Origin: a virus | Direction: 5' to 3' (one strand) | IMG/VR virus record: IMGVR_UViG_3300045988_112927 | Location: 1 to 56,518 of that record | DNA length: 56,518 nt | Shown: positions 12,240-37,619 of the stretch, piece after piece | Layout of the letters: each line of letters begins with the position of its first letter | Numbering within the stretch: position 1 is the first letter of the stretch | Made by a program: the position numbers and the translations under genes | The notes under the pieces: generated by a model | Told to the model about the DNA's origin: nothing | Seen by the model: only the letters and a program-made list of their open reading frames with translations | Database searches by the model: none

Positions 12240-12255
12240 GTTTTTACTTGACTTT
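12232..12255 (-). terminator. hairpin spanning the stop codon of the 2050-aa fibre gene (10-bp stem, T-run downstream on the minus strand)
   Basis: AAAGTCAAGT (12232-12241) pairs with ACTTGACTTT (12246-12255). The fibre stop codon (12244-12246) is in the loop. On the minus strand the stem is followed by AUCCAAAUUUUUUG. Confidence 0.4.
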
Positions 12256-15200
12256 AATCCAAATTCGTCCGTTTACTTTAACCGGGTCTCTATCAGAGCC
12301 TTCTCCTCCACCCCACTCTTCATAAGTAGGAACGCAAGATACAGTACCAACGATTCTATCAGGATAATTAATAATTTCTTCACGAGTCATAATATCGACC
12401 GTTCCGCCCGGAGCGGCGCAAACACAATCACCAGGTTTATAATTATTTCTATCTTGATAAGTATATACAAGAACACGACCTGCTACTGCTATTGGAGTTT
12501 TAGCCTTTTCAGTCTCGCCTTGAGAGAATCCCCATGTATCTGAAGAAACACCGGCGAAATGTTGAAGTCTTTCAGTTGTTTTGGTTAAACTATCTTTTCC
12601 AGTTTCAGTTAATACATATCCATATTCGGTTGTATCAGCTTCTCGACACTCTGCGTAGTCATTCCATACTGCGCCAGTTACTGAATTACCTTCAATCCAA
12701 ATTCTCTTCCATGCATCTGCAGTTCCTGAGCGTACTGCACGATACCATAATTGGAAATGGTTTGGGTTACAGAAAATTTCTTGCCAGTAAGTAGTTCCCC
12801 ATGACATTCTTAATACTTGGACATTTGCTACAGAACCATTTTCATCACCATTACCAGCTGGGAAACTCCATAAGTTTCTGTTATTAGAACTACCTGCATA
12901 AGCATTACCAGCTGCCGTTCCCAAAGGAATTTGACCTGAAAAGTAGGTTAAAGTCTGATTATAAGCTGGAGCGCTTTGATTTGCTTTTACTTCAGTTGCC
13001 GGACCATTGAATTTAGCGGCTATAACGGTACCATTCGTCATGTCAACTTTAAAACGTTCATTAGCACCATCATGTAATCTAAAATAATTATCATAACTAT
13101 CTATACAAATTGTTTTATAAGAAGATGTCGCAGGATTTAATTTTATCTCTCCGCCTTCATGAGCAGTGTTTTGTGCAGTTACCGTTAAATATGTTGTAGT
13201 TAAAGCACCAGTCATGGTGTCTCCAGACTTTTTAACATAACGACCATCAAGAGTATTCATATATGTTGCAGTATTTAACAAAGTACCACTTGAAGCTGGC
13301 AAATAATTAGTATAATTAGCATCAGAGGTTGTAGCTATTAATGCATTATACCCTTCTCCTGCGCTATATAAATAAATTTCTCCTCTTTGGTTTCCTGTAG
13401 TTTCGTTAACTTTATAAGCATTACCAAGAGTCATTCTCATAAAACCTATATTGGCGGCTTGATAATAATAGTAACATCTTAATCTTGCTCCATCAGAGCT
13501 GTAAATTTGTCCATCGGTACTATTTATAAGAGGTAAATACCAGTTAACATCTTGATTTGCTGTTCTTGTAGTAGAATATACAAGTCTACCAAGATGAACT
13601 CCCATATAACCAGAAGCATTGGGAATCGTTACGGTTCTATTAGAAGTAGCAACTGCGGACTGAATATTAGTATATGCTGTTCTAGTACCATAAATCCATA
13701 AATTTCCTCTGGCATTATGAGCACCGCTTGTAGAAGCTACATCTTTATTATTACCAATTCTTAATACCATAACACCAGCAGTACCATTTGTAGTTGTAAC
13801 AGTGCCATCTGAGGCAGTAGATTGAGTTGCGGCTGTACCTATTTTAGATACATACATACCTAAAGTTTCAACAGAAGATTCTCTAAACCATAATCCAACA
13901 TTAATTGCAGCAACATCTATATAAGTATTACCATTAAATGAAGATGTTCCCTTTACATATAGCTTATGTCCAAAGTCTACCCCACCAATGCTTACATTAT
14001 TCAGATGTGCTTGCGCGCTACTGTTAACATAGTAAGTTGTTCCATTGGCAAAATATGTAATACCATTATGAGTAACATTGCCATCAAATTTAGTGGTACC
14101 ATTTACATATAATCTATATGAAGTGTTTCTACTAGTTTGTCCAAGAGCTAAATATGGTAGTGAAGCAGCTCCTGTTGTATGGTCCATGATTAAACCATAC
14201 ACCGAATAAGTAGTTTGTTTTGCACTATTATAATTACATCTAATAGAGAATACTCCACCCTCATTAGCTAATTGCCAAGAAGCATTTCCACCTCTCCATA
14301 ACTCAATACCGACATTACCACTACCACCATTTAATTCAGAACTTACGATTAATTGTCCAGTTACATTCGATGAACTAGATGCGTTACCTTCAATTCTTAA
14401 TCTACCAGTATTAGAACTTAATGACATTCTTGCTGTTGGCTTAGTTGTTGCTGCAACACTAGCATTAGAAGTAGCCTCCCAAATCCATCCATATCCTGCG
14501 GCATTCTCAATTAAACTTCTTCTTGCCCATGAAGTAACTTCTGTCGTCGTAGATGGCTTTCCATTAGTAGGACATAATCCATCTTGTGGGTCAGACATAT
14601 AATCTACCCATGTATAATAATTAGGATGATACCAATAGATACGACCATTAGTATTCCCACCAGCTCTGTTGAGCATCAATCTATTTCCACTAATATATCC
14701 AAGACCACTAATAGAAGCAACGTTAGTTGAACCTCTTTTGAAAATCCAACCTCTATTACCTGTATCACTCATAGTGAAATAAGTAGCCCAGTCGCTAGTT
14801 ACATATGAATGAGTTCCCGCACTTGAAGTCTGTCTAAAATAAATAGCATAGCTTGAAGATGCATTATATAAAGTAATACCGCCATCACTACCAGAGCCAC
14901 CCATATTAGTATGTAACCATCTTGTGTACATACCATTAAAATAGTTACCTGAAGTACCAATAGATTGAGCATTAGCTTGCCCAACTTCTGCTTTAACTGG
15001 AATTACAGCACCAGCAGTGGTAACTTGTATACCAATTCTATTTGCTATAGTATCTGCATTAGCTTCAATATTAACAGCACCATCTGCTAATAAATATAAA
15101 ACCTCTGTTCCACCTGCAACTGACATGCTTTGCGCAGACTCTCCGGCGCCAATAATAGTAACTCCACCACCACCAATAGAAATACCATTGCCGTGAGCAT

Positions 15201-18200
15201 CTGAAGTATTATCGATAACTCTAATTAAAGAAGTTGTAGCTTGAGTACCAATAGCATAAATGTTTCCATTCTTTGGTAAATATACATTTCCGTTTAAGTA
15301 TGAGGTTCCTTGCACATATAAATTATATCCGATGTTTGCGGCGCCACCGACACTTACAATAGGTAAAAATGTATGACCTGAACTATTGATATAATATGTA
15401 GAACCTCCTGCAAAATAAGCAGTACCATGAGTTCTAGTACCATTTGTAAAGATTTCAAATCTTGTTTTTGGAACTGTTGAATCACACACTGCAGTCCAAG
15501 AACCACTTACAGCAGTTTCGTATGTTTGGAATAAATGACCTGCGGCTACATGACGAATTCTGTCTGGACCCGAACCATTTACAGCAGTCATTGAAGATGT
15601 AGAACCCATGTCATTACCTTTAAATAAAAGTAATTCAGAAGATTCACTATCACCCCATCTGTTTTCACCGATATAAGTATGATTAAAACTTCCGGCTCCA
15701 TCACCAGTAGTACCATAGAATGCAATATAGTTGGTATCTCCGTTCGCATTATTACCAACTCTTAATCCATTATTAAAAGTAGCAGTACTATTTACTGTTA
15801 AAGTATTAAATTTTGCATTAGCAGAATTATCAATATAATATGTCGTACCATTAGCAAAATATAATATACCATTAAATAAACTGTTATCTGTAACTTTTAA
15901 AGCGTAATTAGTATCTGGCGCAACCCTAATTCCAACTGAACGAGCGAAATAACCATCACCACTTGAATTAGCATAAAAAGTTGAACCACCCGTTTTAAAT
16001 TGAGTGGTCGCATTAAATGTATACGCAAATACTTCTTTCCATCTTGTACCAGTTGTACCAATATCCTGAGCATTATTAGATGTAGCCAATGGAACACCAG
16101 GAAATATTGTATTACCAGAACCATTTAATAATGTTAATGTGCGTTTTACTGTAGCAAAAACCCCACTATATTGACGAACATGAATTGGTTCATTGTAATC
16201 ATCAGCCGTAGCAATTTCCAAATAACCACCATTTGAAGCGGTTGCTCCTGCTCGAATTCTTGCATAATCATTATCGCCAACAGTCCATTGAATGCCTTTA
16301 GCTAGACCAGAAGATATATTAGGGAAATAAATCATTCCTGTAAATGTTTTATCTCCTGCAATAGTTTGTGCGGCGTTGGTTATTACGCCCGCAGAACTAG
16401 CACTAGCGACCGGAACGTTGATTGCCGCAAGGTCAGCACCAGTACCATCCTTATATGTCAAAGTTACTGTAGTTCCAGTGCTACTAAATGCCATAGAAGA
16501 AACATATTTTGAAGAAATAGTATTTCCTCTATCATCAGCATATGCTCGAGCAGCCATACCTTCTACTACATCAACAATCAATTTTGCAAAACCAGAAGTA
16601 GAAACCTTATTAGTTGCATTAGCTACAATAGTTGCCCATGTATCTGTTGCCCCTGGGTTAAATTTGAATTTATCATTCTTAACTGGAGTTCCAACATTAC
16701 TACTATGAGAAAACCATACATTACGTGCGCTATTGCCAGTATTATTTTCAATACCAGAGTAATTAAAACCGCTTGCCTTTTGGATTGTTAAAGAACCATT
16801 AGAGTCAAGAGTTTTTGCGCCAGTTAGTGTTTGCGCTCCGGTCGTAATAGCGCCAGCCGCACTAGCACTTGCAGTAGGAAAATCAACAGTAGCCTTTAAT
16901 GCTCCACTTCCACTATATAGATTAACAACAACTTTAGTTGTTTTATTTGTAGTACCATCAAATCCAATATTAGCTAAATAATGTGTTTTGAACACATTAT
17001 TCATATCATCAGTTTTAGCTCCATCTGCACTTGAAGCATGATTTGCTTCTTGAACAGTAGCACCATCACTTGCTACAATAGTATTTGTGTATGTAACACC
17101 TAATTTTGTAGCACCATCTGAAATTGATGTATAACACTCTGTTGAAGTTTTTTTATCAGCAGAAGTAGTATTATCAACTTCAGTAGAACTAATTAAAGTC
17201 CAACTTCTACTACCTTGTAATTGATAAACAGTACATCTAGGCCAAGTACCAACTTTATAATATAAATCTGCTAATGAATTACCTGATGTATTTCTTAATC
17301 CAATTTGTAAAGCATCTTTTGATATATTATATCTATATAACCATTTAATAGTAGCATTAGCAGTATTGCCAGTAGAAATATTATTAGTTCTTAAAGAAAC
17401 TTTAGCTACACCATATCCTCCGCCATCATAACTATGACGAATTGCAATTATCATTTCTTTATCATTATAACTAGCTGTTACATTGCCAGTAGTTGCAATT
17501 CTATGCCAAGGATAATTAGCAGTATTACCTCCACCAACAGAACAAGAATAACTTCTTGCATTTAAAGTAACATTTTTACTTCCGTCAATAGTTACAACAC
17601 CTTGCAAATCTTCAGCTAAAGTAATATTTCTAGCATTAAGCCATTTATCTGCAGTAGCCGCATTACCATTTAAACTACCAGTTACATTACCATTTAATGC
17701 ACCATTAAAAGTTGTTGCATTAATAGTAATACCATAAATAATCTTCCAACGTAATTTATCAGTACCAAGACTCAGACTGTTATCTGCTTTTGGTTGAACA
17801 TTTCCACCAAATTGTGTAGTACCACCATCATTATTGATATAAATAATTGAAGCAGTAGTGCCATTTGATTTGGCTTGAATTTCATTAGCATCTATAGCAA
17901 TATGCGAACCAGTAGGCGAACCGATTAATAAAGAGCCAGAGTTTGCTGTAGCTGCGGCAGCGTCGATTCCACCGGTAATAACTACCTGACCCGTAAAAGT
18001 CTTTTTACCAGCAAAAGTCTGCGCGCCGGTAATCACAGTTCCGGCCGTAGTAGCTGAAGCAACCGGCATTAATATAGTCGTAGTATTACCATCACCTTTG
18101 GTATAAGTTAAAGTTACACCATCTGTGCTAGCATACTTTGTTCCTTCCATAGAAATTGCTTTTATGTACGTTTGAGCAATATTTTGGTTTCTGTCATCCT

Positions 18201-18396
18201 GTGAAGCTTTTGTCACAAAATTAGAAACTTTAATACGCTCTCCATTAGTATCATAATATAAATAGCTTCTCCACTCTGTACCAACTTTTTCAGCAGTTAC
18301 ATATAAACTACCTTCGACTATTGGATTAGCGTAAGCGCCATTTACTTTCTTAAGAAGGTTGGTTTCTGTACCGGTTAAAAATTTTACATTTGCCAT
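12244..18396 (-). CDS. giant tail fibre protein (2050 aa)
   Basis: Gly/Ser/Thr/Asn-rich beta-rich composition. YFANGTTYY(I/V)-type segments recur four times. MNTLDGRYVKKSGDTMTGAL is the T4 gp37/lambda Stf-type fibre repeat signature. The N-terminal MANVKFL...GSLYVTAEK module is shared with other fibres. A distinct C-terminal ~150-aa domain follows. Confidence 0.8.
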   Translation of the reverse strand: MANVKFLTGTETNLLKKVNGAYANPIVEGSLYVTAEKVGTEWRSYLYYDTNGERIKVSNFVTKASQDDRNQNIAQTYIKAISMEGTKYASTDGVTLTYTKGDGNTTTILMPVASATTAGTVITGAQTFAGKKTFTGQVVITGGIDAAAATANSGSLLIGSPTGSHIAIDANEIQAKSNGTTASIIYINNDGGTTQFGGNVQPKADNSLSLGTDKLRWKIIYGITINATTFNGALNGNVTGSLNGNAATADKWLNARNITLAEDLQGVVTIDGSKNVTLNARSYSCSVGGGNTANYPWHRIATTGNVTASYNDKEMIIAIRHSYDGGGYGVAKVSLRTNNISTGNTANATIKWLYRYNISKDALQIGLRNTSGNSLADLYYKVGTWPRCTVYQLQGSRSWTLISSTEVDNTTSADKKTSTECYTSISDGATKLGVTYTNTIVASDGATVQEANHASSADGAKTDDMNNVFKTHYLANIGFDGTTNKTTKVVVNLYSGSGALKATVDFPTASASAAGAITTGAQTLTGAKTLDSNGSLTIQKASGFNYSGIENNTGNSARNVWFSHSSNVGTPVKNDKFKFNPGATDTWATIVANATNKVSTSGFAKLIVDVVEGMAARAYADDRGNTISSKYVSSMAFSSTGTTVTLTYKDGTGADLAAINVPVASASSAGVITNAAQTIAGDKTFTGMIYFPNISSGLAKGIQWTVGDNDYARIRAGATASNGGYLEIATADDYNEPIHVRQYSGVFATVKRTLTLLNGSGNTIFPGVPLATSNNAQDIGTTGTRWKEVFAYTFNATTQFKTGGSTFYANSSGDGYFARSVGIRVAPDTNYALKVTDNSLFNGILYFANGTTYYIDNSANAKFNTLTVNSTATFNNGLRVGNNANGDTNYIAFYGTTGDGAGSFNHTYIGENRWGDSESSELLLFKGNDMGSTSSMTAVNGSGPDRIRHVAAGHLFQTYETAVSGSWTAVCDSTVPKTRFEIFTNGTRTHGTAYFAGGSTYYINSSGHTFLPIVSVGGAANIGYNLYVQGTSYLNGNVYLPKNGNIYAIGTQATTSLIRVIDNTSDAHGNGISIGGGGVTIIGAGESAQSMSVAGGTEVLYLLADGAVNIEANADTIANRIGIQVTTAGAVIPVKAEVGQANAQSIGTSGNYFNGMYTRWLHTNMGGSGSDGGITLYNASSSYAIYFRQTSSAGTHSYVTSDWATYFTMSDTGNRGWIFKRGSTNVASISGLGYISGNRLMLNRAGGNTNGRIYWYHPNYYTWVDYMSDPQDGLCPTNGKPSTTTEVTSWARRSLIENAAGYGWIWEATSNASVAATTKPTARMSLSSNTGRLRIEGNASSSSNVTGQLIVSSELNGGSGNVGIELWRGGNASWQLANEGGVFSIRCNYNSAKQTTYSVYGLIMDHTTGAASLPYLALGQTSRNTSYRLYVNGTTKFDGNVTHNGITYFANGTTYYVNSSAQAHLNNVSIGGVDFGHKLYVKGTSSFNGNTYIDVAAINVGLWFRESSVETLGMYVSKIGTAATQSTASDGTVTTTNGTAGVMVLRIGNNKDVASTSGAHNARGNLWIYGTRTAYTNIQSAVATSNRTVTIPNASGYMGVHLGRLVYSTTRTANQDVNWYLPLINSTDGQIYSSDGARLRCYYYYQAANIGFMRMTLGNAYKVNETTGNQRGEIYLYSAGEGYNALIATTSDANYTNYLPASSGTLLNTATYMNTLDGRYVKKSGDTMTGALTTTYLTVTAQNTAHEGGEIKLNPATSSYKTICIDSYDNYFRLHDGANERFKVDMTNGTVIAAKFNGPATEVKANQSAPAYNQTLTYFSGQIPLGTAAGNAYAGSSNNRNLWSFPAGNGDENGSVANVQVLRMSWGTTYWQEIFCNPNHFQLWYRAVRSGTADAWKRIWIEGNSVTGAVWNDYAECREADTTEYGYVLTETGKDSLTKTTERLQHFAGVSSDTWGFSQGETEKAKTPIAVAGRVLVYTYQDRNNYKPGDCVCAAPGGTVDIMTREEIINYPDRIVGTVSCVPTYEEWGGGEGSDRDPVKVNGRIWIKVK

Positions 18397-18493
18397 AAAA
18401 TTTTATAAACCTCCTTTTTCGCTTAAATTTATTTTTATCATCTATAATATCTTAAAATTCTCGCAAGCAATATTTTTATATTCTGGCCAAATA

Positions 18494-18529
18494 AGAAAAA
18501 GGGGGAGAAGTATTAAAACTTCTCCCCCT
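18494..18529 (-). terminator. rho-independent terminator (minus strand) after the 199-aa gene
   Basis: GGGGGAGAAG (18501-18510) pairs with CTTCTCCCCC (18519-18528), with an 8-nt loop. The A5 run at 18496-18500 on the + strand becomes a U-tract after the stem on the minus strand. Confidence 0.6.
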
Positions 18530-18534
18530 ATAAT

Positions 18535-19134
18535 TTATAGAGTAATCCAATAAACGTCTTTATCTGCAATTTCTTTTGCAACCTCAAGGATTTGCTCAAG
18601 ATAACTTGCATAATATTCTTTATCAGAATTTTCCCATTCTTCTGGGTCAACGTCAATACCATGTAATACTTTACTCGTAGCAGCTGTTGTACTTAAGTTA
18701 TATAATAACTTCTTTTCCGTATTGATACTGTCTAATAAGTAAAATCTTATTGAATACTGAACATCACCTGCGGCCTTGGTTGCCTCGCCTTCGATTGCCC
18801 AAGGGAAAAGCATCTCATTGGTGTCTGAAAAAGTATCGACATCATAGTAAGGTACCGCATATACACGACCCTCGCCAGCCGCGTTAATATATTGAATAAC
18901 GCAGACTAGCTTTGAAAGGTCGATTGTATCAAAATAACGAGGGCATCTAAAATAGATAACCTCTGAACGGTGGTCAGCTTCTACGCTTAAATACTCAGGC
19001 GCTTCAATTTGACGAGCCGCTAAATCGACTGTGTAAATCTTCTCAGTGCCTGGAAGCAAGATGGCTAAGCTAGGCTTGTTTTCATCTTGAATTTCGTAAA
19101 GTAAACTTAGATATTCTTGAGATTCTGTTGTCAT
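18535..19134 (-). CDS. structural protein (199 aa), paralogous to the N-terminal half of the 671-aa protein
   Basis: It shares a block with ORF 19168-21183: VIYF..PRYFDTIDL...FPW...AG.VQYSIRFY...YNLSTT against IVYF..NRFYDAIDL...FGW...AGTIQFAVRFY...YSLSTL. Confidence 0.5.
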   Translation of the reverse strand: MTTESQEYLSLLYEIQDENKPSLAILLPGTEKIYTVDLAARQIEAPEYLSVEADHRSEVIYFRCPRYFDTIDLSKLVCVIQYINAAGEGRVYAVPYYDVDTFSDTNEMLFPWAIEGEATKAAGDVQYSIRFYLLDSINTEKKLLYNLSTTAATSKVLHGIDVDPEEWENSDKEYYASYLEQILEVAKEIADKDVYWITL

Positions 19135-19167
19135 AAGCCCAAACCCTCCTTGTTAATCTTGCTTTAA

Positions 19168-21183: not shown

Positions 21184-21297
21184 TCAATCGTCCAATCCTT
21201 TCTTAAAATTTATTTTCAATGAAGGAGCCTACGCAAGCCGTAAACCCCTCCATCGACTTCTTTCAAAAATATTTGAAAAAAGAATAGTTTATAATAA

Positions 21298-21516
21298 TCA
21301 TTTCTGACCAGTTGGAGCTTTTACTTCTCTCCAGTTTTCAAGTTCACCTTCTGGAATCATAACTGACTCGACATAATTCTTATTATCTCTAGTAAGCTTT
21401 AAGCCTTCATCAGCCTGAAGAAAATATTTACGAGTATAGTAAATATCTTCTAAATGAACGGGACTAGTAATAGTCCCGTTCGTACCAAGGTAAACATAAT
21501 AAACAGTTTTTGTCAT
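21298..21516 (-). CDS. hypothetical small protein (72 aa)
   Basis: An ORF between two structural genes on the same strand. No motif recognised. Confidence 0.4.
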   Translation of the reverse strand: MTKTVYYVYLGTNGTITSPVHLEDIYYTRKYFLQADEGLKLTRDNKNYVESVMIPEGELENWREVKAPTGQK

Positions 21517-29112: not shown

Positions 29113-30906
29113 TTAACTGAAGCTGCCCCAAACTAACTCGATTTTTAATCCCTCCGCAGTTGTGGAGCTAGAGCTTGTGATACCATTAGTATCATCTTCC
29201 GTAATTTTTAATGATTCACTACTGAAAGCCACTCTACTTGTAACTGTCATTTCTGCTCCACTAGGTGCGGTGAATCCCATAGTATCCGCGATTATACCAA
29301 CAGATTTACCATTCTTAGTATAAACAGAAGTTGCATATGCGTTACTTGATAAATGACCACTTCTATCTTGAATCTTATATTTCTTTACAGTAATTCCAGT
29401 AACGTGTCCAGAAGAATCTGAAGTTACACCTGTTACTACTGGGATTACTACTTGAGTTCCAAAGTTATCATAAGCACCGACTTTGATTGCTGACATAGAA
29501 ATTTCAGTCGTAGCAACATCATCAGTACGAGTTACACTACCATGCTTGATAGTTAATGTCTCTTGGTAACCTTTTGTACCAGCAATAGCACTACTTGCTT
29601 TATCAATTACGATATGTGCAGTAGTATCACCTTTAATCTGTAAAACACCAGTTTCCTGATTGTTTTGATTCTGTAATGAAATACCACCACCATTTGTTAC
29701 AGACTCACTTACAAAATGATAAGTTGTATCTGTGTCAGCAGTAGATTCTACTACATCAAACGATAAAGTCGCTGTTGTAATATAACCACTAGCATCCTCA
29801 GTACCTTTAGCAATCAATAAAGTTCCAACAGTAAGTTTAGTTGAACCATCAACTGAAACTCCATCAGAACATACTAAAAATACATCACCAATAGAACACT
29901 GCACTACTGTTGAACCATTATATACAGTTGTTACTTTTGTAGTAGTATTATAATTAACTCTCGTAGCTACTGAACCGCCAGTACCAATAGTACCACGATA
30001 TGTCATGGCATTTAATGCTTTTAATGTATCAGCAATATCAGCTTTAGAATATACATCTAAAGTAGCTACACCATTAACAAAATCAACTTCTGTATTATTG
30101 TTACCATATTTAATCTTAGGTCTAAAGTTTTCACTTACAGTATGATTATGGTTATCCTTAATAGAAATATCAAAACCAGTAGTACCTTCGATTGAAATAC
30201 TTGCGTTCTTGCTATCTTTAGCAGCAACTTCTACATTACCATTTTTAACTGTAAAAGTTACATTACTCCCGCTTTCACCGGTAAAAGTACCTGGAATAAA
30301 ATTGAAATCACTATTATGATTTTCGTCAGAAGTTAACTTTACTTTTGCGCCAGTGCCATCTTGCTCTGCGCTGATAGCGTATTGGTCTCCAGTAATTGTA
30401 ATTACATGGCAATCAACACCATTAATTTGAGTTGTTGCAACATCAACTTTAATGCCATTCGCACCATCAAATTCTAAGTAATCACTTTCTACCTGAGTTG
30501 TCTGTCCACCTGGAGTCTTATTATATACAACATTATTGATTCGGATTTTATCATCTGAAATTTCAGCAACTACGAATTCAATAGCGTCTACATAAGTGTC
30601 TGGGTTAATTTGTGCCCATACAGAACCATTAAATACACAAAGAATGTTCTGACTTGAAACATAATAAAAACGTCCCGCATAAGCCGCTTTATTAGCACTC
30701 GTAATATTAGGCAAGTCACTAATATTAGTAACTGTAATAACACCCTCATTTACCGGTGCGATTGATGTATCGTCATTACCAATGTATAATCTATGTGTAT
30801 CAGAGGTTAAATAGAAACTACCAGGAGTTGCACCAGCAGAAGCACCTTGTGCAATTAAGGCATCTACAGCAGATTGTAGACCAAGTTTAAAACCTACATT
30901 AGCCAT
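29113..30906 (-). CDS. fibre-like structural protein (597 aa)
   Basis: The N-terminus MANVGFKL...GSFYLTSDTHRLYIGND is the shared fibre N-module. The remainder is Thr/Gly/Val-rich with repeated beta-sandwich-like segments. Confidence 0.55.
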   Translation of the reverse strand: MANVGFKLGLQSAVDALIAQGASAGATPGSFYLTSDTHRLYIGNDDTSIAPVNEGVITVTNISDLPNITSANKAAYAGRFYYVSSQNILCVFNGSVWAQINPDTYVDAIEFVVAEISDDKIRINNVVYNKTPGGQTTQVESDYLEFDGANGIKVDVATTQINGVDCHVITITGDQYAISAEQDGTGAKVKLTSDENHNSDFNFIPGTFTGESGSNVTFTVKNGNVEVAAKDSKNASISIEGTTGFDISIKDNHNHTVSENFRPKIKYGNNNTEVDFVNGVATLDVYSKADIADTLKALNAMTYRGTIGTGGSVATRVNYNTTTKVTTVYNGSTVVQCSIGDVFLVCSDGVSVDGSTKLTVGTLLIAKGTEDASGYITTATLSFDVVESTADTDTTYHFVSESVTNGGGISLQNQNNQETGVLQIKGDTTAHIVIDKASSAIAGTKGYQETLTIKHGSVTRTDDVATTEISMSAIKVGAYDNFGTQVVIPVVTGVTSDSSGHVTGITVKKYKIQDRSGHLSSNAYATSVYTKNGKSVGIIADTMGFTAPSGAEMTVTSRVAFSSESLKITEDDTNGITSSSSTTAEGLKIELVWGSFS

Positions 30907-30929: not shown

Positions 30930-31862
30930 TTAAACTGTTTCTTCTTCAACCATATCTTGCCATTTAAGCAATGCTTTTAAAGTTTCAACATCAATACCTA
31001 AATCATTCAATCCCTGGTCTAAGTCTGCAATATCAGCAATAGCTTTATTAAGACTCCCAGTTAAGGTATTCATTTTAACAATTAAACCTGTTGAAGAATT
31101 ATTTATTGCATCATCTAAATTCCCAACTTGTGTTATTAAGCCAGGTGTTCCATCCGCAGCGTCGTATAAAACTTCTTCATGTTTATTTACTTTAACAACG
31201 ATATCTGCGATGTTAATTGCAGAATCATGTTCATTAATCCAATCTGCAATTTCTTTTAAAGTATCAAAGCTTTCTGGAGCATCTGAGACTATTTTTGCAA
31301 CTGCTTCATCTACAATATCAGTAGCGATATCTACGATTGTACCAGTCTTTCCACCTCTTAAAAGAGCTAACTCATCTTTCCAAGCCTGCGCATTTTTAGC
31401 TACAGTATCAGTTAAATTGTCTAATTCTTTTTCAACGTCTTCAGTAGGATTTGACCATGTTCCGTCACCTTGTAAATACATGTCTTGCTGTCCAGCCAAT
31501 GGAACTGGTACTAGACCAGACTGACCATTTGAATCGGCTGTGGCACCAATCATTACATCTACAATAATAGCAAAAACTTCTTGAAGTGTTTTATTCTCCC
31601 AATTACCAGTAGCCCCATTGTAAACCAAAAGGGAATTAGTAGGGATACCTTCAGAAATTAAAACGCCTTCCAAATCTTTAATATGAGTCGCTGAATCTCC
31701 ATCAGCAATTAACTTAGAGCCTAAGTATAATTTACCTTTTTCAGAGCCAGGTTCAGAAATAAAATAAAGAGTATCGCTATCTTTACTTTCGATGGATTGC
31801 CAAGCAGCTGGAGTTCCACGTAAGAACTTTACATAATTACCATATTTTGTTGTATAAGCCAA
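30930..31862 (-). CDS. short fibre protein (310 aa): shared N-terminal module plus a C-terminal domain paralogous to the C-terminus of the 1884-aa protein
   Basis: The N-terminus is KFLRGTPAAWQS...DTLYFISE..GSEKGKLYLGSKLIADG. The C-terminus is SFDTLKEIADWINEHD, parallel to FDTIKEIADWLESND of ORF 31965-37619. The start codon is TTG, served by AAGGAGG with 9-nt spacing. Confidence 0.55.
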   Translation of the reverse strand: MAYTTKYGNYVKFLRGTPAAWQSIESKDSDTLYFISEPGSEKGKLYLGSKLIADGDSATHIKDLEGVLISEGIPTNSLLVYNGATGNWENKTLQEVFAIIVDVMIGATADSNGQSGLVPVPLAGQQDMYLQGDGTWSNPTEDVEKELDNLTDTVAKNAQAWKDELALLRGGKTGTIVDIATDIVDEAVAKIVSDAPESFDTLKEIADWINEHDSAINIADIVVKVNKHEEVLYDAADGTPGLITQVGNLDDAINNSSTGLIVKMNTLTGSLNKAIADIADLDQGLNDLGIDVETLKALLKWQDMVEEETV

Positions 31863-31926
31863 AATATTTTACCTCCTTTACTAAGCCTTTCCTATGTATA
31901 TATAAAAAATATCTCCTTTAAATTAC

Positions 31927-31966
31927 ACAAACCTGGCCTATATAGACCAGGTTTGTTTATTTAATT
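31927..31966. terminator. hairpin with flanking A/T tracts immediately downstream of the 1884-aa gene stop
   Basis: ACAAACCTGG (31927-31936) pairs with CCAGGTTTGT (31947-31956). One extra C-G pair is interrupted by a mismatch. TTTATTTAATT follows on the + strand and AAATTA precedes. Confidence 0.45.
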
Positions 31967-34900
31967 AAGCTTCAAGTGTTGCGATACGCTCTTCTAATTG
32001 AGCAACCTTTTGGAATAGCCAAACAATTGTTTTATCTGCATTTTCATCAAAATCTGCAGGCACTTCATATACTAAGTTATCATCAGTTGAAGTTACGAAA
32101 TCTCCAACTGTTGGTAAAGCTTTTCTTGTTACAGAAATCTTACCATCAGTTTCAGAAACGCTTGATACATATTTTCCAGTTTGTTCAGAGTCAGTAACAT
32201 CAAGTCCATTAATAGCGTCTTTAATTTGCTTTTTAATAGAGCCGGTAGTGTTAGCATCACCATTTAATACTGCGATAGCATCAATAACTCCATCTGCGCC
32301 AGAGTCATTACTCTCTAACCAATCAGCAATTTCTTTGATAGTATCAAATGCGGCATTAATATTCTCGCCACCAAGTAAATCTCTAATAGCTTGCGCTCTT
32401 GCATTCTCTTCATCATTGATTTGAGTTTGCAGTTTACTTAAAGCTTCAGCTAAAGTATCGGTAGCAGCGACATCCGCATTATCTGTCTTCTTAGTATATC
32501 CTGTAAGAGTTAATGAACTTAAATTCTTACGAGTTGTACTTAAAGCACCAGTAGATTCAACAAAAGCTAATTGAGTGATAACATCTGCGCCAGTTGCATT
32601 TGCATCTGTAAGACTTCCTTTTGGAATTGTTACAGTATGAGTTTCACCTTTGAACTTATGTCCTTTTGAATCAAAATACCAATCTTCAATAGTAAATGTT
32701 TCACCAAATTTAGGTGTTGCATTTGACTTTGAAGTATAAGTAGAAGATACTGGACCAATATGTTCAAACTTAGCTTTTCCATCACTTACTGTTGGTTTTA
32801 ACCAAGAATCACCCTCGAATACAAAGGTATCTTGAGTATTCTTTGCTGTTGATTTACCAACTGTTGCGTTTGAATCTGTAAATACTTTATATCCATAAGG
32901 TAAAGTAACAGTATTTTCATTTACCTTAGTTACATGTCCTTTTTCATCTCTCTCAAGAGTTTCAAGAACGATTGTATCGCCATTATCGTTTACATTAGAT
33001 GTAGAAGTTGTATCATCCACTTTCTTAGGATAATCATGGCTGTATACTACTTTGTCTTTTGTAACTGTTGCTGTCAACCACTCATCTGAACTAAAAGTAA
33101 GAGTATCAAATGTAGCAGTTGCGGCAGTGTTTCCAGAGTCACCAATAATCTTACCATAACCAAAAGGCATTGTTAATGTCTTTGTATCATGACTTACATA
33201 ATGACCTGCCTTATCAAATGTGTATGTAGGAATAGCAAATGTAATATTCTTACTTTCTTCACTTGATAAGCTTGCACTTGATGTGCTTGAAGATGTATCG
33301 TGGATATCGTGCGAAATCTTCAAACTGTCATTGTCTTTATCAGTATCAATTCTAATCCACTTATTACCTGAGTTAATACTCAATACGTCTTGAGTATTAT
33401 CAGCTACAACATCATTCTTTACAACATTATCTGCTGTATTTACAGTTTCATCTGTACTGCGTCCATTTGTTTTGATAGTTTTGAAACCATATGGCAATGT
33501 AAAAGTTTCTTCATGCTTTCCAACCATATGACCCATATCATCAATTAATGGAGTTAATAAAGTTAATTTATCTGTTGCTAAAGATGAAGCAATTCCATCC
33601 GTATTTAAGTTTGTAGCATGAGATGTATCTTTAACTTTTTGGAAGTTATGGTGAATAGTAATTAAAGGATTGGTAATAGTACCATCGATATTTACTGTCA
33701 ACCATTGTTTATACATATCTTCCACAGTATCTGCTACTTTAGCAAATTTATCTGCGGCCACGCCCTTACGGTCGGAATCAAGAGCCTTAGTAGTCTTAGA
33801 AGTTGCGGTCTGGTCAGTACTCCAGTCCATACCTCTTACTCTACCATAGTTATCTACTGCTAAGAATTTCTCTGGAGCTAATTCATGGAATCTAGCAATT
33901 AAGTCTTGCATCTTATTGATAGTTCCTTGAACAGTAGAATCATCTCTAGTGTATTTATCTCCTGCGAGTAACATCTGGTTAATCTTAACAATTAAACCAT
34001 GGATTGTATTAAGGCCTCGCGCAAAATCCTTTAAAGGAACAAGTTCCCAAGTTTCAGCTCTCTTTGCTAATGTTACAGTTGAAGGAACTTCTAAGATATT
34101 ACTATCCCATTCAGAGCCTTTCTCATATACACCAGCTTTATCCTCTAAGATATAGTATTTATCTTCTTTATAGAATTCATCTATATCTTCAGGCATTTCA
34201 ATATCACGAACTAATTCATATTCTCCAGTAATAGGATTCTTAGTGTAATATTCTCCTGGTTCGTAGAAGGTTCTTCCACTTAAATCAACAAGAGTAGCAC
34301 TTTCAATCTTACAATATTCATTATGCGTTTTAGTTAAATAATTATCTAAAACATAACTATTATTATTTGTTATATAATGATAAATATGAGGAGTATAGAA
34401 AGCTGATTGAACCATTAAAGCAAAGTTTAATTTATTCTTATCAGAATCTGTTGTCGCAATATATGGATGATTGTTTGTAAGTTTATCTCTCATACCAAAA
34501 GCATAGAACTGTTGGTCTGGATTTGATGGGTCAATTTCCTGCATTGTTACAGGATAATAACCTAAGAATTTCTTTTCTTCATCATACTTCTTAAAGAAGA
34601 AAGTATTTTTTACAAAAGGAGTTAAATTTAATTGATTCTCAGTATCAATTTCAACTTGGTCTTCTGCTGGTGTATAGATAATCTGTTCAACAGCATACTC
34701 GGTTGAAGCTGAAATTGTTTCATCAGCACTTACTTCAACATAATCAAATTTTCCTTTATCATCGCTTGCAGCGCCATTTGCAGAATATACCTTTTTATAC
34801 ACTCTATTGTTTGTAATCAAAAGAGTAGGTACGTCTCTATAGCTTACAGATATAAAGTAAACTTGTTTTACATATCCAATATTCTCTTCTTCTTTGTCCT

Positions 34901-37619
34901 TAATTTTAACTGTATAATGGATATTAGCTTCACCTTTATCATTAGTTCCATCGACAGACATATCTTTGATATATTCTCCATCTTTGTAGTAATAATAAAG
35001 ACCTGGCATATAAATTCCATCATAGTCATCTTTTACAGATTTAACGAGTGATTCATCTACAGTATAATAGGTTCTACCATTAATAGAGCTCTCATTAAAG
35101 TCTAACCAATAGCCATTACCGTCTGAGTAAAAGAATTTTCCTGGCTCATATGCTCCACTAAGTTCAAGTGTAGCACTTGGAGTTACTTCATAATATTGAT
35201 GACCTTTTTGATATTTGGTATCAATAATATAATCCTGCATTGTTAAATCTAACGAACCATCTGAATTATATACTTTATTATAAGGACTTGAGTTAATATC
35301 AAGATAATGATACTGACCTGTCCAAGCTTCCATTCCTTTAATAGGCTCGAAAATATCTTCTGGGTCTATCATATTAGAAACTTCTTTATAAAATGGACCA
35401 ACATCACTAGCAGTAGCTTTTCTGTAAGTTCCATCTGCATTTTTTACATAATACTTAGTTTTATCAAAATTATCAGCATTAACTTCTGATTCTTCTAAAA
35501 GTACTTTACCAGTAGTTAAAGTAACTGGAGTATATACATAAGTCTTATGTTTCATAGTATATTGACCTTGAAGTTTCTTAATAGCTTCAGAGCCGCCTAA
35601 AGAATTATCACTAGGATTTACATAGTAAATTCTTTCTTCATCTAAATTATCCAAACTTGCAGATAATTTATCTACTGTATCAGCAGTAATAATCATACCC
35701 ATAAGGTCATGAACTGCATTGATACATCCTGCTAAAGTATTTACTTCAGCAGTATTATAAGGTTTATCGCTTCTATAATGAACTAAACGCAAACCATTTC
35801 TGTCAAGATGACCTTTTGCATCTTCCCACTCATAGTCCATATTACGCATATTAGTATTTTTAATAGCGTCGTTAGTATCACGACCACCAAATACCATATC
35901 CCAAATCTTAGAAATTGTATCTCCAAGAGAAGGAAGCATAATTGATAATTCTTGAGTATCTGGGTACATCTTTGATTCCGTGCCGTTCTTATGAGGTTTG
36001 TATTCTTGACCACTCATACCAGTAGGAGCAATACTAATTTTATCCTCATTAGTCCATCCACTATCTGCGATAGATTTATTGTAACCTGAAAGAGCCTTAC
36101 TGTTAATAATGTCTTCACTGTAAGATACTTTCTTAGGGTCAAAACCTTTCTTATTGTAATAAATTGCGGCTTCGATTGAGTTATTCTTCTCGTCGCACGT
36201 TTCCGTCCAAGTAGTCTGAGTAGGACTGAAATACCCAACTTTCTCTTCTCCAGTATAGGTATTATAGAAATTACCTTTCCAGTTTGTAACTTGGTCTGAA
36301 GGATAGATAATTGTATCGGTACTTAAATCACTTGAACCGCCGAATCCACCTGCTAAGTCAATAGAAGGTCCCATTAACTGCTTTGCGGACTTTGTTCTGA
36401 ATCCCCACTGTGGCTGAGTATGAAGTTTATAGTAAACATTCGTACTGTCTTTATCAAAGTGAGGCACTAAAGGAATCATTGTAGGAGCATCAAAAGCGAT
36501 ATCGAATGTTGGAACTACTGAATTTAATTCAGCAATCATAACATACTTATCTTGTCCGCCTACGACTGTTTTCTGCCATACAGTTGAATCATACCCTCTA
36601 GTTGCGCCAGTCCCTGTACTGTCACCATATTCAGAGATATACGCACGGTCGATAGATAGGTTTTTGAAATAAGTATCATCTGCATTTTGGTCTTCAACTA
36701 CAGCTCTCCACTTATAGAGACCATCTTCTCCAACACTTTGAATCTGCCAAAATTCATCTTTATAGTTCAAAGAATATCTGTGCCATTTTGGAATTCTATA
36801 AATGTGTCCAACTTGTAAAGGAGCACTTGCTGTTAAAATATCTTCTCCATACTTCATACCATCAATATTAGAGGTACTTGTTGTTAAAAAGATATCGAAA
36901 TCTCTAATCTCTAAACGCTGATAATAATTAACAGCTTCATCAAAAGTCCCTTTTGTATCATTTTCATATTCTTCTGTTTCTTCATTATAAACAAAGAATG
37001 TATTAGGTTCATATGTTATTGGAGTTAAAGTAATCTGATAATAACTCGCTTTTACCCTCGCCGCAACGGCGTCCGCAATTTCTTTATCAGAAGCGCCTGG
37101 TTTACTAACTACAAATTCATCTTCTACTTGTTTTCTCAAGTATTCTGTAAGCCATGCATTGTATGTAGCAGCGTTTACTTCAAAATCCATACTATATTTA
37201 CCATTACTTGAAATATTAGTAATTCTTACATAAACAGAAGAATGATTTACATTATTAGCTCTTCTTCCAACTGGAATTCTAATAATTTCTCCGGTAGAGA
37301 ATGAATTATTATCTTTTGTCACTAATAATTCTTTATCTGGATATGAATAAAAATATTTATCTGCTACTGTGCATTGATTTGGAGAGCCTTTATATAAAGA
37401 CCCATCATACATCCAAAAAGCTTCACCATCTTCTAAAGACCCTGTGATATCATAAAAACCATCTTGAGTTTTCTGACTGTAATCTACTAAAACATATCTA
37501 CCTGGATAAACACCATCACCAAGACGAGCGCCATTATCCATATCTCTCTTATTAGCATATGTTCTATCAAATTGGAAAGTAGTCTTTGAAGTGTTACTTA
37601 TATTGCCATAAAATCCCAT
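31965..37619 (-). CDS. giant tail fibre/structural protein (1884 aa) with internal ~100-aa repeats and a C-terminal ADW-motif domain
   Basis: Four tandem repeats carry D(K/S)(A/K)GH....T(L/V)T(L/M/I)P(Y/F)GY. The C-terminal ~150 aa has FDTIKEIADWLESNDSGADGVIDAIAVL, homologous to the 310-aa protein's C-terminus. The coiled-coil end is VAQLEERIATLEA. Confidence 0.6.
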   Translation of the reverse strand: MGFYGNISNTSKTTFQFDRTYANKRDMDNGARLGDGVYPGRYVLVDYSQKTQDGFYDITGSLEDGEAFWMYDGSLYKGSPNQCTVADKYFYSYPDKELLVTKDNNSFSTGEIIRIPVGRRANNVNHSSVYVRITNISSNGKYSMDFEVNAATYNAWLTEYLRKQVEDEFVVSKPGASDKEIADAVAARVKASYYQITLTPITYEPNTFFVYNEETEEYENDTKGTFDEAVNYYQRLEIRDFDIFLTTSTSNIDGMKYGEDILTASAPLQVGHIYRIPKWHRYSLNYKDEFWQIQSVGEDGLYKWRAVVEDQNADDTYFKNLSIDRAYISEYGDSTGTGATRGYDSTVWQKTVVGGQDKYVMIAELNSVVPTFDIAFDAPTMIPLVPHFDKDSTNVYYKLHTQPQWGFRTKSAKQLMGPSIDLAGGFGGSSDLSTDTIIYPSDQVTNWKGNFYNTYTGEEKVGYFSPTQTTWTETCDEKNNSIEAAIYYNKKGFDPKKVSYSEDIINSKALSGYNKSIADSGWTNEDKISIAPTGMSGQEYKPHKNGTESKMYPDTQELSIMLPSLGDTISKIWDMVFGGRDTNDAIKNTNMRNMDYEWEDAKGHLDRNGLRLVHYRSDKPYNTAEVNTLAGCINAVHDLMGMIITADTVDKLSASLDNLDEERIYYVNPSDNSLGGSEAIKKLQGQYTMKHKTYVYTPVTLTTGKVLLEESEVNADNFDKTKYYVKNADGTYRKATASDVGPFYKEVSNMIDPEDIFEPIKGMEAWTGQYHYLDINSSPYNKVYNSDGSLDLTMQDYIIDTKYQKGHQYYEVTPSATLELSGAYEPGKFFYSDGNGYWLDFNESSINGRTYYTVDESLVKSVKDDYDGIYMPGLYYYYKDGEYIKDMSVDGTNDKGEANIHYTVKIKDKEEENIGYVKQVYFISVSYRDVPTLLITNNRVYKKVYSANGAASDDKGKFDYVEVSADETISASTEYAVEQIIYTPAEDQVEIDTENQLNLTPFVKNTFFFKKYDEEKKFLGYYPVTMQEIDPSNPDQQFYAFGMRDKLTNNHPYIATTDSDKNKLNFALMVQSAFYTPHIYHYITNNNSYVLDNYLTKTHNEYCKIESATLVDLSGRTFYEPGEYYTKNPITGEYELVRDIEMPEDIDEFYKEDKYYILEDKAGVYEKGSEWDSNILEVPSTVTLAKRAETWELVPLKDFARGLNTIHGLIVKINQMLLAGDKYTRDDSTVQGTINKMQDLIARFHELAPEKFLAVDNYGRVRGMDWSTDQTATSKTTKALDSDRKGVAADKFAKVADTVEDMYKQWLTVNIDGTITNPLITIHHNFQKVKDTSHATNLNTDGIASSLATDKLTLLTPLIDDMGHMVGKHEETFTLPYGFKTIKTNGRSTDETVNTADNVVKNDVVADNTQDVLSINSGNKWIRIDTDKDNDSLKISHDIHDTSSSTSSASLSSEESKNITFAIPTYTFDKAGHYVSHDTKTLTMPFGYGKIIGDSGNTAATATFDTLTFSSDEWLTATVTKDKVVYSHDYPKKVDDTTSTSNVNDNGDTIVLETLERDEKGHVTKVNENTVTLPYGYKVFTDSNATVGKSTAKNTQDTFVFEGDSWLKPTVSDGKAKFEHIGPVSSTYTSKSNATPKFGETFTIEDWYFDSKGHKFKGETHTVTIPKGSLTDANATGADVITQLAFVESTGALSTTRKNLSSLTLTGYTKKTDNADVAATDTLAEALSKLQTQINDEENARAQAIRDLLGGENINAAFDTIKEIADWLESNDSGADGVIDAIAVLNGDANTTGSIKKQIKDAINGLDVTDSEQTGKYVSSVSETDGKISVTRKALPTVGDFVTSTDDNLVYEVPADFDENADKTIVWLFQKVAQLEERIATLEA

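What the first reader, a model, noticed from the sequence alone, without database searches (positions are those of the whole stretch)
12244..37619. Array of four to five giant fibre-like proteins sharing one short N-terminal module
Five proteins begin with variants of one ~45-aa module: 12244-18396 (2050 aa), 21535-28995 (2486 aa), 29113-30906 (597 aa), 30930-31862 (310 aa) and, more weakly, 31965-37619 (1884 aa). The variants include MANV(K/G)F..., GSLYVTAEK, GSFYLTSDTHRLYIGND, DTLYFISE..GKLYLGSKLIADG and PGYVYFASDTGKIYFD. Their distal parts are entirely different. This is the signature of a common virion-attachment or trimerisation module carrying interchangeable receptor-binding ends. It implies a branched or multi-fibre adsorption apparatus. 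In total about 7300 aa of fibre protein are encoded.
Basis: partly seen in the sequence, partly recalled or inferred. Interest (0 to 1): 0.7.

Follow-up and report, generated by a model that had tools for sequence, protein, structure and literature searches.

The report
Four tail fibres sharing one N-terminal cap
Four of the five huge tail-fibre genes of this uncultured ~190-kb gut phage start with diverged copies of one small fold that resembles known fibre N-terminal and trimerisation domains, an ordinary design seen here in a large uncharacterised phage family.

Summary
All five ORFs exist as described, on the minus strand. They lie between the tape-measure/baseplate genes and a holin. Four of them share a homologous N-terminal module of about 45-55 aa: A (12244-18396), B (21535-28995), C (29113-30906) and D (30930-31862). 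Profiles built only from database homologues match each other with hhalign P = 8e-10 to 9e-7. Real scores are 34-48, against 9-11 for column-permuted controls. The fifth protein, E (31965-37619), scores at null level. It has a different, highly conserved N-terminus, so it is not part of the set.

AlphaFold models of C and D give the same strand-helix-three-strand fold. Its closest structural matches are collagen XV/XVIII trimerisation domains, Mtd_N-containing phage proteins and other N-terminal caps of phage fibres. Part of the D-type module corresponds to Pfam PF24243.

The gene order E-D-C-B...A is conserved in related 180-195-kb gut phages. A D-C-B triad is present in 65 of 80 IMG/VR loci. 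B, C and D are collinear orthologues in the relatives I compared. Only A is a cassette mosaic, along with D-type proteins in more distant phages.

This is a new variant of a known design and of moderate interest.

The parts
12244..18396 (-). A: 2050-aa mosaic tail fibre, the last structural gene before the 123-aa ORF and the holin
   Evidence: ORF. Its homologues carry Gp34_trimer, Phage_fiber_rpt, BppL_N and End_tail_spike. Residues 1-685 are conserved at about 70%. Residues 700-1900 are shuffled. The last ~145 aa are conserved at 50-88% in otherwise different proteins.
18223..18396 (-). A-type N-module (aa 1-58, MANVKFLTGTETNLL...EGSLYVTAEK...YLYYDTNGERIKV)
   Evidence: hhalign of window A vs the C-type profile gives P=1.8e-7, and vs the C+D profile 6.6e-8. 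HMM E=2.7e-4 among the window's ORFs. The A-type N-terminus is conserved in about 30 homologues.
21535..28995 (-). B: 2486-aa protein with BspA-type LRR (aa 2321-2404) and a Listeria-Bacteroides repeat near the C-terminus
   Evidence: Pfam LRR_5 at 5e-14. It is collinear and 60-88% identical in related phages, and least conserved in the last ~300 aa. The central part is related to the giant tail protein of hankyphage-like Bacteroides phages.
28840..28995 (-). B-type N-module (aa 1-52, ...RFRPVTGTDAQIQ...PGYVYFASDTGKIYFDLDMDTRVAMGG)
   Evidence: hhalign of B vs the A-type database profile gives P=8e-10 at 96.5%. B vs the D-type profile gives 2.2e-6. Permutation z=27.
29113..30906 (-). C: 597-aa protein, member of a family of ~550-630 aa conserved over its full length
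   Evidence: Full-length alignments to P0152, P0097 and others at 30-50% identity.
30592..30906 (-). C-type N-terminal region (aa 1-105): module aa 1-48 plus a second beta-hairpin subdomain
30930..31862 (-). D: 310-aa protein. It consists of the N-module, a second subdomain, a GLVPxP...YLQGDGTW motif and long helices (coiled-coil-like).
   Evidence: AF2 model with pLDDT 80. About half of its homologues share only the first ~137 aa and have different C-terminal parts.
31695..31838 (-). D-type N-module (aa 9-56, YVKFLRGTPAAWQSIESKDSDTLYFISEPGSEKGKLYLGSKLIADG)
   Evidence: Pfam PF24243 at 19.9 bits, E=4.6e-4, below the 23.7-bit cut-off. 23 of 76 module-bearing database proteins match PF24243. C-type vs D-type hhalign P=8.9e-7; with longer profiles the alignment spans C 3-105 and D 10-96.
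31965..37619 (-). E: 1884-aa conserved tail-fibre-like protein without the module. It has its own conserved N-terminus, MGFYGNI(S/T)NTSKTTFQFD...
   Evidence: 1277 homologues, many aligned over the full length. One is named 'tail fiber protein', and several carry PF03406. Profile vs module types gives P>=0.076.
18535..21516 (-). Three conserved genes between B and A: 72 aa (21298-21516), 671 aa (19168-21183) and 199 aa (18535-19134, a paralogue of the 671-aa N-terminal part)
   Evidence: The same three genes sit between the B-type and A-type genes in L015 and L016.
37626..56514 (-). Upstream tail genes: 129 aa, 997 aa (phrog_1887 tail protein), 906 aa, 127 aa, 1649 aa, and a tape-measure protein (>2430 aa, cut by the window end)
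   Evidence: PHROG matches. The same order is found in L013 and L014.
11404..11808 (-). Holin, marking the end of the structural block
   Evidence: phrog_13712 holin at 1.4e-32.

Best explanation
A, B, C and D are four distinct tail-fibre or tail-appendage proteins of an uncultured ~190-kb gut siphovirus-like phage. Its host probably uses Shine-Dalgarno sites, as Firmicutes do.

Each protein begins with an old, diverged paralogue of one small domain: a strand, a short helix and three strands, about 45-55 aa. C and D add a second beta-hairpin subdomain.

I infer that this domain forms the trimeric N-terminal cap at the virion-proximal end of each fibre. It would set the chain register and provide the surface that joins the fibre to the tail tip or to a neighbouring fibre.

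Each subtype is conserved across related phages, but the subtypes are only 20-30% identical to each other. The four fibres therefore most likely occupy four different sites rather than competing for one.

D, C and B form an ancient, always co-encoded triad. A is the cassette-shuffled, fast-evolving fibre and the most likely host-range determinant. E is a separate conserved fibre or baseplate-proximal protein without the module.

Shown: homology of the four modules, fold topology, synteny, and conservation patterns. Inferred: trimerisation, proximal location, attachment.
For: - Module homology: (P=8e-10 to 9e-7; permutation z=8-27).
- Position: in an exhaustive search of 1.84 billion representative proteins, 1848 clusters matched at E<=1e-3. 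Of 181 single-copy hits among the sequences held, 176 start within the first 12 residues.
- Same predicted topology in independent AF2 models of D and C.
- Foldseek against BFVD: 18 hits at E<=1e-3. They include phage collagen-triple-helix proteins, an Mtd_N-containing protein (6.8e-4), and tail-fibre and tail-collar proteins.
- In the A-type mosaic family, a protein sharing an internal cassette with A carries Pfam Mtd_N at residues 10-49, the equivalent position.
- Fibre identity: homologues of A have Gp34_trimer, Phage_fiber_rpt, BppL_N and End_tail_spike. An E homologue is named tail fiber. The genes lie between baseplate-type genes and the holin.
- The N-terminal 50-100 aa are the best conserved segment of C and D between phages.
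- Synteny E-D-C-B-72-671-199-A holds in four related 179-193-kb contigs.
- A D->C->A/B-type triad is present in 65 of 80 IMG/VR loci.
Against: - There is no direct evidence of trimerisation or of virion location. The models are monomers.
- No module reaches a Pfam gathering threshold.
- Mtd_N was not detected by sequence. hhalign against two Mtd_N-bearing N-termini gave P=0.009 or worse.
- The same unit occurs internally and in tandem in other proteins (P0048, P0088, P0092, P0102). It can therefore act as a general fibre building block rather than a dedicated attachment device.
- Many phage fibres trimerise from the C-terminus (established knowledge). An N-terminal nucleation role is therefore not required.
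Confidence: 0.6

Rival explanations
1. The module is only a generic small fibre building block, a node or knob that can sit anywhere along a trimeric fibre. It has no specific role in attachment. Its N-terminal position in A-D reflects how such fibres are built, and attachment is made by other regions or by adaptor proteins such as the 129-, 72-, 199- or 671-aa products.
For: There are tandem and internal copies in P0048 (3 copies), P0092 (2), P0088 (at least 5) and P0102 (at least 3). Pfam names the D-type core 'Phage_tail_C / phage tail tip domain', which implies a non-N-terminal position in its seed proteins. Profile hits to designed beta-propeller blades show that the hairpin motif is generic.
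Against: 176 of 181 single-copy hits start within the first 12 residues. The N-terminal segment is the slowest-evolving part of C and D. D-type homologues keep the first ~137 aa while swapping the rest.
Confidence: 0.22
2. The N-modules of D, C and B (and possibly A) associate with one another. They would form a hetero-oligomeric node from which different fibres branch, as in the branched tailspike complexes of Ackermannviridae.
For: D, C and B-type genes are adjacent, in the same order and on the same strand, in 65 of 80 IMG/VR loci and in all four close relatives compared. The modules are paralogous. Branched complexes built through N-terminal domains are documented (PMC11414711 abstract).
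Against: No interaction evidence of any kind was obtained here. Co-encoding is equally expected for independent fibres of one tail tip.
Confidence: 0.1
3. The resemblance is chance or convergence: a short beta-hairpin motif (G-x-h-Y-h-x-S-D-T-x-x-h-Y) arising independently.
For: The module is short. Pairwise BLAST between window proteins is weak (B-C E=0.027). Similar motifs occur in PQQ-like propeller blades.
Against: Profile-profile scores lie far above the permuted controls. The four best HMM hits among 379 ORFs are exactly the four N-termini. Intermediate sequences link the types (P0091, P0092, P0164, P0226). C and D have the same predicted topology.
Confidence: 0.03
4. Some of these giant proteins, especially B with its BspA-type LRR, are not virion fibres. 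They would be phage-encoded adhesins or surface proteins expressed for another purpose.
For: LRR_5 and Listeria-Bacteroides repeats are typical of bacterial surface proteins. No proteomics exists.
Against: B lies inside the late structural operon on the same strand. It is conserved in position and is related to the giant tail protein of hankyphage-like Bacteroides phages.
Confidence: 0.05

Closest known systems
Pfam PF24243 (Phage_tail_C, 'Phage tail tip domain', 26-aa model)
   Same: It covers the first strand-helix-strand of the D-type module (KFLRGTPAAW...DTLYFI). 23 of 76 module-bearing database proteins match it, some with several copies.
   Different: Window D scores 19.9 bits, below the 23.7-bit cut-off. 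A, B and C do not match. The model covers only half of the module. No function is attached to it, and no paper in the searched library mentions it.
Mtd N-terminal domain of Bordetella phage BPP-1 (Pfam PF18454 Mtd_N; PDB 1YU0) and the N-terminus of the streptococcal prophage hyaluronidase HylP1 (PDB 2C3F)
   Different: There was no Pfam Mtd_N hit even at E<=10. hhalign against two Mtd_N-bearing N-termini was not significant. The structural scores are weak.
NC1 trimerisation domain of collagens XV and XVIII (PDB 3N3F, 9BNB)
Paralogous N-terminal domains of FibL and FibU (BppU-like Ig domains) in staphylococcal siphovirus 80alpha
   Same: Two different fibres of one siphovirus share a diverged N-terminal domain (21% identity) that forms attachment rings around the tail tip. 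The authors propose that the fold is a general device for attaching varied structures to tails (PMC7048315).
   Different: The fold is different (Ig-like, about 120 aa). I found no BppU-like domain in A-D.
Branched multi-receptor-binding-protein systems (Ackermannviridae TSP1-4; Klebsiella phages RaK2, phiK64-1 and phiKp24)
   Same: Several tandemly encoded receptor-binding proteins have N-terminal modules used for assembly and very different distal parts (abstracts of PMC11414711, PMC10253068 and 10.1101/2022.03.15.484430).
   Different: Those are myoviruses of Gram-negative hosts with beta-helix depolymerase spikes and gp10-like or other anchor domains. No depolymerase domain was detected in A-E. 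B, C and D are conserved orthologues rather than swapped spikes.

Membership tests
Pfam PF24243 Phage_tail_C | HMM score at or above the gathering cut-off of 23.7 bits | tested here: not met
   D N-terminus scores 19.9 bits, E=4.6e-4. A, B and C give no hit. D-type homologues do pass, for example P0048 at 77.6 bits, and 23 of 76 match. D is therefore a sub-threshold relative.
Pfam PF18454 Mtd_N | Sequence match to the Mtd_N HMM | tested here: not met
   No hit for any of the five N-termini at E<=10. hhalign of two Mtd_N-bearing N-termini against the module profiles gives P=0.009-0.69.
Pfam PF18454 Mtd_N | Same fold as the Mtd N-terminal domain | tested here: inconclusive
Collagen XV/XVIII NC1-type trimerisation domain | Fold of four strands plus one helix, about 54 aa | tested here: inconclusive
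Collagen XV/XVIII NC1-type trimerisation domain | Forms a stable homotrimer | not testable with these tools
   Only single-chain prediction was available.
Phage tail fibre / receptor-binding protein (general) | Homology to established tail-fibre domains | tested here: met
   A-type homologues carry Gp34_trimer (1.3e-9), Phage_fiber_rpt (1.9e-8), BppL_N and End_tail_spike. D has PHROG tail-fibre matches. E homologues carry PF03406 and one is named 'tail fiber protein'. B and C have no such match.
Phage tail fibre / receptor-binding protein (general) | Encoded in the late structural block, downstream of the tape-measure and baseplate genes | tested here: met
   Order TMP-1649-127-906-997-129-E-D-C-B-72-671-199-A-123-holin. 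The order is conserved in relatives.
Phage tail fibre / receptor-binding protein (general) | Present in virions | not testable with these tools
   There is no isolate and no proteomics.
Branched multi-RBP complex (Ackermannviridae / RaK2 type) | Several RBP genes in tandem with N-terminal assembly modules | tested here: met
   Four module-bearing genes lie within 25 kb. The D-C-B triad is conserved in 65 of 80 loci.
Branched multi-RBP complex (Ackermannviridae / RaK2 type) | N-terminal modules bind each other or a common adaptor | not testable with these tools
   No multimer prediction or interaction data.
Branched multi-RBP complex (Ackermannviridae / RaK2 type) | Distal beta-helix depolymerase domains | tested here: not met
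   No pectate-lyase or depolymerase family was found in A-E by Pfam or PHROGs.

The most novel reading that the evidence does not exclude
The paralogous N-modules of D, C and B (and perhaps A) do not each cap a separate fibre. Instead they co-assemble into a hetero-oligomeric junction, so that fibres of different kinds branch from one node. The chain selection would resemble that made by collagen NC1-type trimerisation domains. If so, the conserved D-C-B triad of this large uncultured phage clade would be a new type of branching device.
Probability: 0.08. Interest if true: 0.7.

Novelty: new variant of a known kind. Interest (0 to 1): 0.35.

Why it matters
This defines a widespread N-terminal cap of phage fibres. 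It matched 1848 clusters of representative proteins. Pfam captures only part of it, and no function is attached to that entry.

It also shows that one large family of uncultured ~180-195-kb gut phages builds its adsorption apparatus from a conserved set of four cap-bearing fibres plus a fifth, different one.

For host prediction and engineering, the work points to A as the cassette-shuffled specificity determinant. The breakpoints are near residue 685 and near residue 1900. B's LRR tip is a second variable end. The capped N-terminal parts are the segments that must be kept when fibres are swapped.

It does not change current understanding of how phages attach fibres.

Tried and rejected
- Nucleotide and protein searches of the isolate-phage collection with a 20-kb block, with C, and with a D-type consensus found nothing. 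No cultured relative carries the module at BLAST level.
- Single-protein scans of IMG/VR with D and with the 997-aa protein found nothing. Only the alignment-based scan worked.
- The profile search of PDB sequences returned designed beta-propellers (Cake, Scone) through summed weak repeats, and the 80alpha FibU C-terminus at E=0.21. Both were rejected as non-significant. The 80alpha paper shows that this part of FibU was never resolved.
- phmmer of D residues 1-120 against PDB hit only designed helical repeats, which is spurious.
- Foldseek of the full D model against PDB gave no hit below E=0.9.
- Apparent distal similarities appeared without composition correction: A-C over ~300 aa, B-E, and C with the 1649-aa protein. 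They disappeared with default statistics and are treated as compositional.
- The Mtd_N / HylP lead came from memory. It was not confirmed by sequence and only weakly by fold.
- Literature searches for PF24243, for a link between collagen XVIII trimerisation domains and phage fibres, and for Mtd N-domain function returned nothing.
- A possible link of this phage family to the 'Jade' or 'Sapphire' recoded clades (10.1101/2021.08.26.457843) could not be tested.
Full report
**1. Setting**

The window is part of a 190,353-bp gut-metagenome contig, ena:ERZ27229705:k119_78680.

- The plus strand from 61 to 11357 carries replication and nucleotide-metabolism genes: a PolIII-alpha-type DNA polymerase, a homing endonuclease, guanylate kinase, NrdD/NrdG, dUTPase and RuvC.
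- From 11404 to the window end, everything is on the minus strand. This coincides with the GC-skew switch.
- The order in the direction of transcription is:
  - tape-measure protein (>2430 aa, cut by the window end)
  - 1649 aa, 127 aa, 906 aa
  - 997 aa (phrog_1887 tail protein), 129 aa
  - E (1884), D (310), C (597), B (2486)
  - 72 aa, 671 aa, 199 aa
  - A (2050), 123 aa, holin
- Every gene has an AAGGAGG-type ribosome-binding site. This argues for a host that uses Shine-Dalgarno sites, such as Firmicutes.
- No cultured phage is similar at nucleotide level, or at protein level for C.

The five ORFs and their lengths are exact.

Raw pairwise similarity of the N-termini is weak. The best pair is B-C, 44% over 39 aa, E=0.027. 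I therefore collected homologues of each type and compared profiles built without the window's own sequences.

| Comparison | hhalign P | Probability |
|---|---|---|
| B vs A-type | 8e-10 | 96.5% |
| A-type vs D-type | 6e-8 | 94.7% |
| A-type vs C-type | 2.8e-7 | 93.3% |
| C-type vs D-type | 8.9e-7 | 91.4% |
| window A alone vs C-type | 1.8e-7 | 93.7% |

- Forty column permutations per pair gave null scores of 9-11 (maximum 13-19). The real scores were 34-48.
- A C+D-type HMM was run on all 379 six-frame ORFs of the window. It ranked D, C, A (2.7e-4) and B (0.066) first, each at the N-terminus. Everything else had E>=1.5.
- Intermediate sequences link the types: P0091, P0092, P0164, P0226 and P0218.
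- E does not belong. Its N-terminus (MGFYGNI(S/T)NTSKTTFQFD...) is itself highly conserved in more than 100 homologues. A 119-sequence profile of it scores at null level against all module types (P>=0.076).

The observation therefore holds for four proteins, not five. The shared region is about 45-55 aa for all four. C and D align over about 100 aa.

**3. What the module is**

- The AlphaFold model of D (pLDDT 80, 44-sequence alignment) shows strand 12-16, helix 18-23, and strands 31-35, 44-47 and 50-53. A second hairpin/helix subdomain follows at 61-100.
- The independent model of C residues 1-125 (pLDDT 82, pTM 0.58) shows strand 6-9, helix 11-23, and strands 31-34, 40-43, 49-53 and 56-59. 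A second subdomain follows at 73-99. The topology is the same.
- Foldseek against predicted viral structures gave 18 hits at E<=1e-3. They include uncharacterised proteins of gut Siphoviridae, Bacillus phage PBS1 proteins, phage 'collagen triple helix repeat' proteins, an 'Mtd N-terminal domain-containing protein' (6.8e-4), and tail-fibre and tail-collar proteins.
- By sequence, only D approaches a Pfam family: PF24243 'Phage tail tip domain', 19.9 bits against a 23.7-bit cut-off. 23 of 76 module-bearing database proteins do match it.
- Mtd_N (PF18454) is not detected by sequence. It does occupy the equivalent N-terminal position in P0253, a protein that shares an internal cassette with A.

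My conclusion is that the module belongs, at fold level, to a broad class of small N-terminal caps of trimeric phage fibres. The sequence family itself is only partly catalogued.

**4. Distribution**

- An exhaustive HMM search of 1.84 billion representative proteins found 1848 clusters at E<=1e-3 and 187 at E<=1e-10.
- A few proteins carry tandem or internal copies: P0048 has 3, P0092 has 2, P0088 has at least 5, and P0102 has at least 3. The unit can therefore also serve as a repeated element of a fibre. This weakens the idea that it is by nature a docking plug.
- Two multi-stretch hits (P0047, P0114) are probably beta-propeller false positives. I did not confirm this. The profile also picks up designed propeller blades in PDB.

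**5. Comparative genomics**

- E has 1277 homologues, many aligned over the full length, often on 180-198-kb contigs.
- Two such contigs (L013 at 188 kb, L014 at 179 kb) show the same order and sizes: 1630-127-~900-~1050-~127-E-D-C-B.
- Two contigs found through A homologues (L015 at 184.5 kb, L016 at 192.7 kb) show B-72-~680-~199-A-type-small genes, followed by the replication genes on the other strand.
- Identity profiles:
  - In C and D the first 50-100 aa are the best conserved segment. In L014 they are 62-74% identical, against 26-48% for the rest.
  - B is conserved throughout (60-88% in L013) and is least conserved in the last ~300 aa, which hold the LRR.
  - A is conserved over residues 1-700, unalignable from 700 to 1900 (0-39%), and conserved again in the last ~150 aa.
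- BLAST of A against its homologues shows the same pattern. Residues 1-685 are about 70% identical. The middle consists of cassettes in different orders. The C-terminal ~145 aa are shared (50-88%) with many otherwise unrelated fibres.
- D-type proteins of more distant phages keep the first ~137 aa (44-54% identity) and differ afterwards.
- C-type proteins are conserved over their full length.
- An alignment-based scan of IMG/VR with the D family returned 80 loci, mostly on 100-200-kb contigs.
  - 65 of the 80 carry D-type, C-type and A/B-type modules in that order and on the same strand within 3-5 kb.
  - 73 of the 80 carry at least D followed by C.
  - 54 of the 80 have an E-type N-terminus 3-9 kb upstream.

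The array is therefore an old, conserved feature of a large uncultured phage clade. It is not a recent collection of swapped receptor-binding proteins.

**6. Mechanism**

Shown:
- There are four paralogous N-terminal domains with one predicted fold.
- They sit at residue 1 of proteins that are fibre-like by homology (A, D and E families) and by gene position.
- Constraint is strongest on the N-terminal parts of C and D.
- A D-C-B triad is conserved.
- A is a cassette mosaic.

Inferred:
- The domain trimerises. This rests on fold resemblance to collagen NC1 trimerisation domains and on similar caps preceding viral collagen-like repeats, which need a registration domain according to established collagen biology.
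- It forms the virion-proximal end of each fibre.
- It provides the contact to the tail tip or to a neighbouring fibre.

The four types differ strongly from one another, yet each is conserved across phages. I therefore expect four different sites or partners rather than one shared socket. A would be the main variable specificity determinant. B's LRR tip would be a second variable end.

Confidence in this account is about 0.6. The main rival (0.22) is that the unit is a generic fibre node with no attachment role. A branched hetero-oligomeric node (about 0.1) is the most interesting reading that remains open. Chance similarity is essentially excluded.

**7. Comparison with what is known**

The design is familiar: several fibres of one phage carrying diverged copies of one N-terminal domain.
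- In staphylococcal phage 80alpha, FibL and FibU share BppU-like N-terminal domains at 21% identity. The authors propose them as a general ring-forming attachment device (PMC7048315).
- Ackermannviridae and the Klebsiella jumbo phages build branched complexes of tailspikes (abstracts).

What differs here:
- The domain family is different. It is PF24243-like and Mtd_N-like by fold. It is neither Ig-like nor gp10-like.
- The scale is large: 7.3 kb-equivalents of protein, with two proteins above 2000 aa.
- No depolymerase domains were detected.
- The whole set is conserved in a widespread uncultured gut phage family.

I rate this as a new variant of a known kind, with interest 0.35.

**8. Limits**

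- All structural inferences rest on monomer predictions and weak structural scores.
- There are no proteomic or interaction data.
- Pfam thresholds are not reached.
- The positional statistic for the database hits is biased toward sequences that resemble the N-terminal query.
- The host assignment is only an inference from ribosome-binding sites.

Noticed in passing
L008 10286 and 10997 (also L009-L011); many of L017-L096: Relatives carrying the same D->C->B genes have in-frame TAG codons inside these genes, and their ORFs are fragmented under the standard code. These lineages therefore appear to be TAG-recoded, while the window phage reads cleanly in code 11. This also explains why the first homologue search returned only short 'fragments'.
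   Followed up: partly
L012 (NCBI GCA_019973215.1, JAIFIG010003466.1) 700-6700 and 6815-7986: An 8-kb contig carries eukaryote-type genes (Ras, U-box/Ufd2P, CFA20, RFC-like). D-type and C-type N-modules follow on the same strand. It is probably a chimeric or contaminated assembly.
   Followed up: no
window 24130-28456 (B aa 180-1622): The central part of B is about 25% identical to the ~2260-aa giant tail protein of hankyphage-like Bacteroides phages such as BT-TP2 gp44. That protein lies next to a reverse transcriptase gene, which suggests a diversity-generating retroelement.
   Followed up: partly
window 16336-16371 (A aa 676-687): A sub-threshold BppL_N (lactococcal lower-baseplate-protein N-terminal) motif sits at the boundary between A's conserved part (1-685) and its shuffled middle. 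It passes the Pfam cut-off in homologue P0210. It may mark a recombination junction.
   Followed up: partly
window 12247-12681 (A aa 1906-2050): The C-terminal ~145 aa of A are 50-88% identical to the C-termini of many otherwise unrelated giant fibres. No Pfam family matches this region in A. It could be a shared tip or an intramolecular-chaperone-like domain.
   Followed up: partly
window 18535-19134 and 19168-21183: The 199-aa protein is a paralogue of residues 90-255 of the adjacent 671-aa protein (E about 1e-19). Both, together with a 72-aa ORF at 21298-21516, are conserved between B and A in relatives. They could be fibre-assembly or adaptor proteins.
   Followed up: partly
window 32106-32291 (E aa 1777-1838); 31221-31271 (D aa 198-214) and 32301-32351 (E aa 1757-1773): E's C-terminal region is 47% identical over ~60 aa to an unannotated ORF of the Prevotella Lak megaphages. 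D and E share a 17-aa motif (FDTLKEIADWI...) at 65% identity.
   Followed up: no
window 4510-5238: A homing endonuclease gene lies between the DNA polymerase and guanylate kinase genes. It matches both GIY-YIG and HNH-type PHROGs.
   Followed up: no
window 31455-31517 (D aa 116-136): The motif GLVPxPxxGxxxx(F/Y)L(R/Q)GDGTW is nearly invariant in D-type proteins. It marks the end of the ~137-aa segment that distant D-type homologues retain.
   Followed up: no
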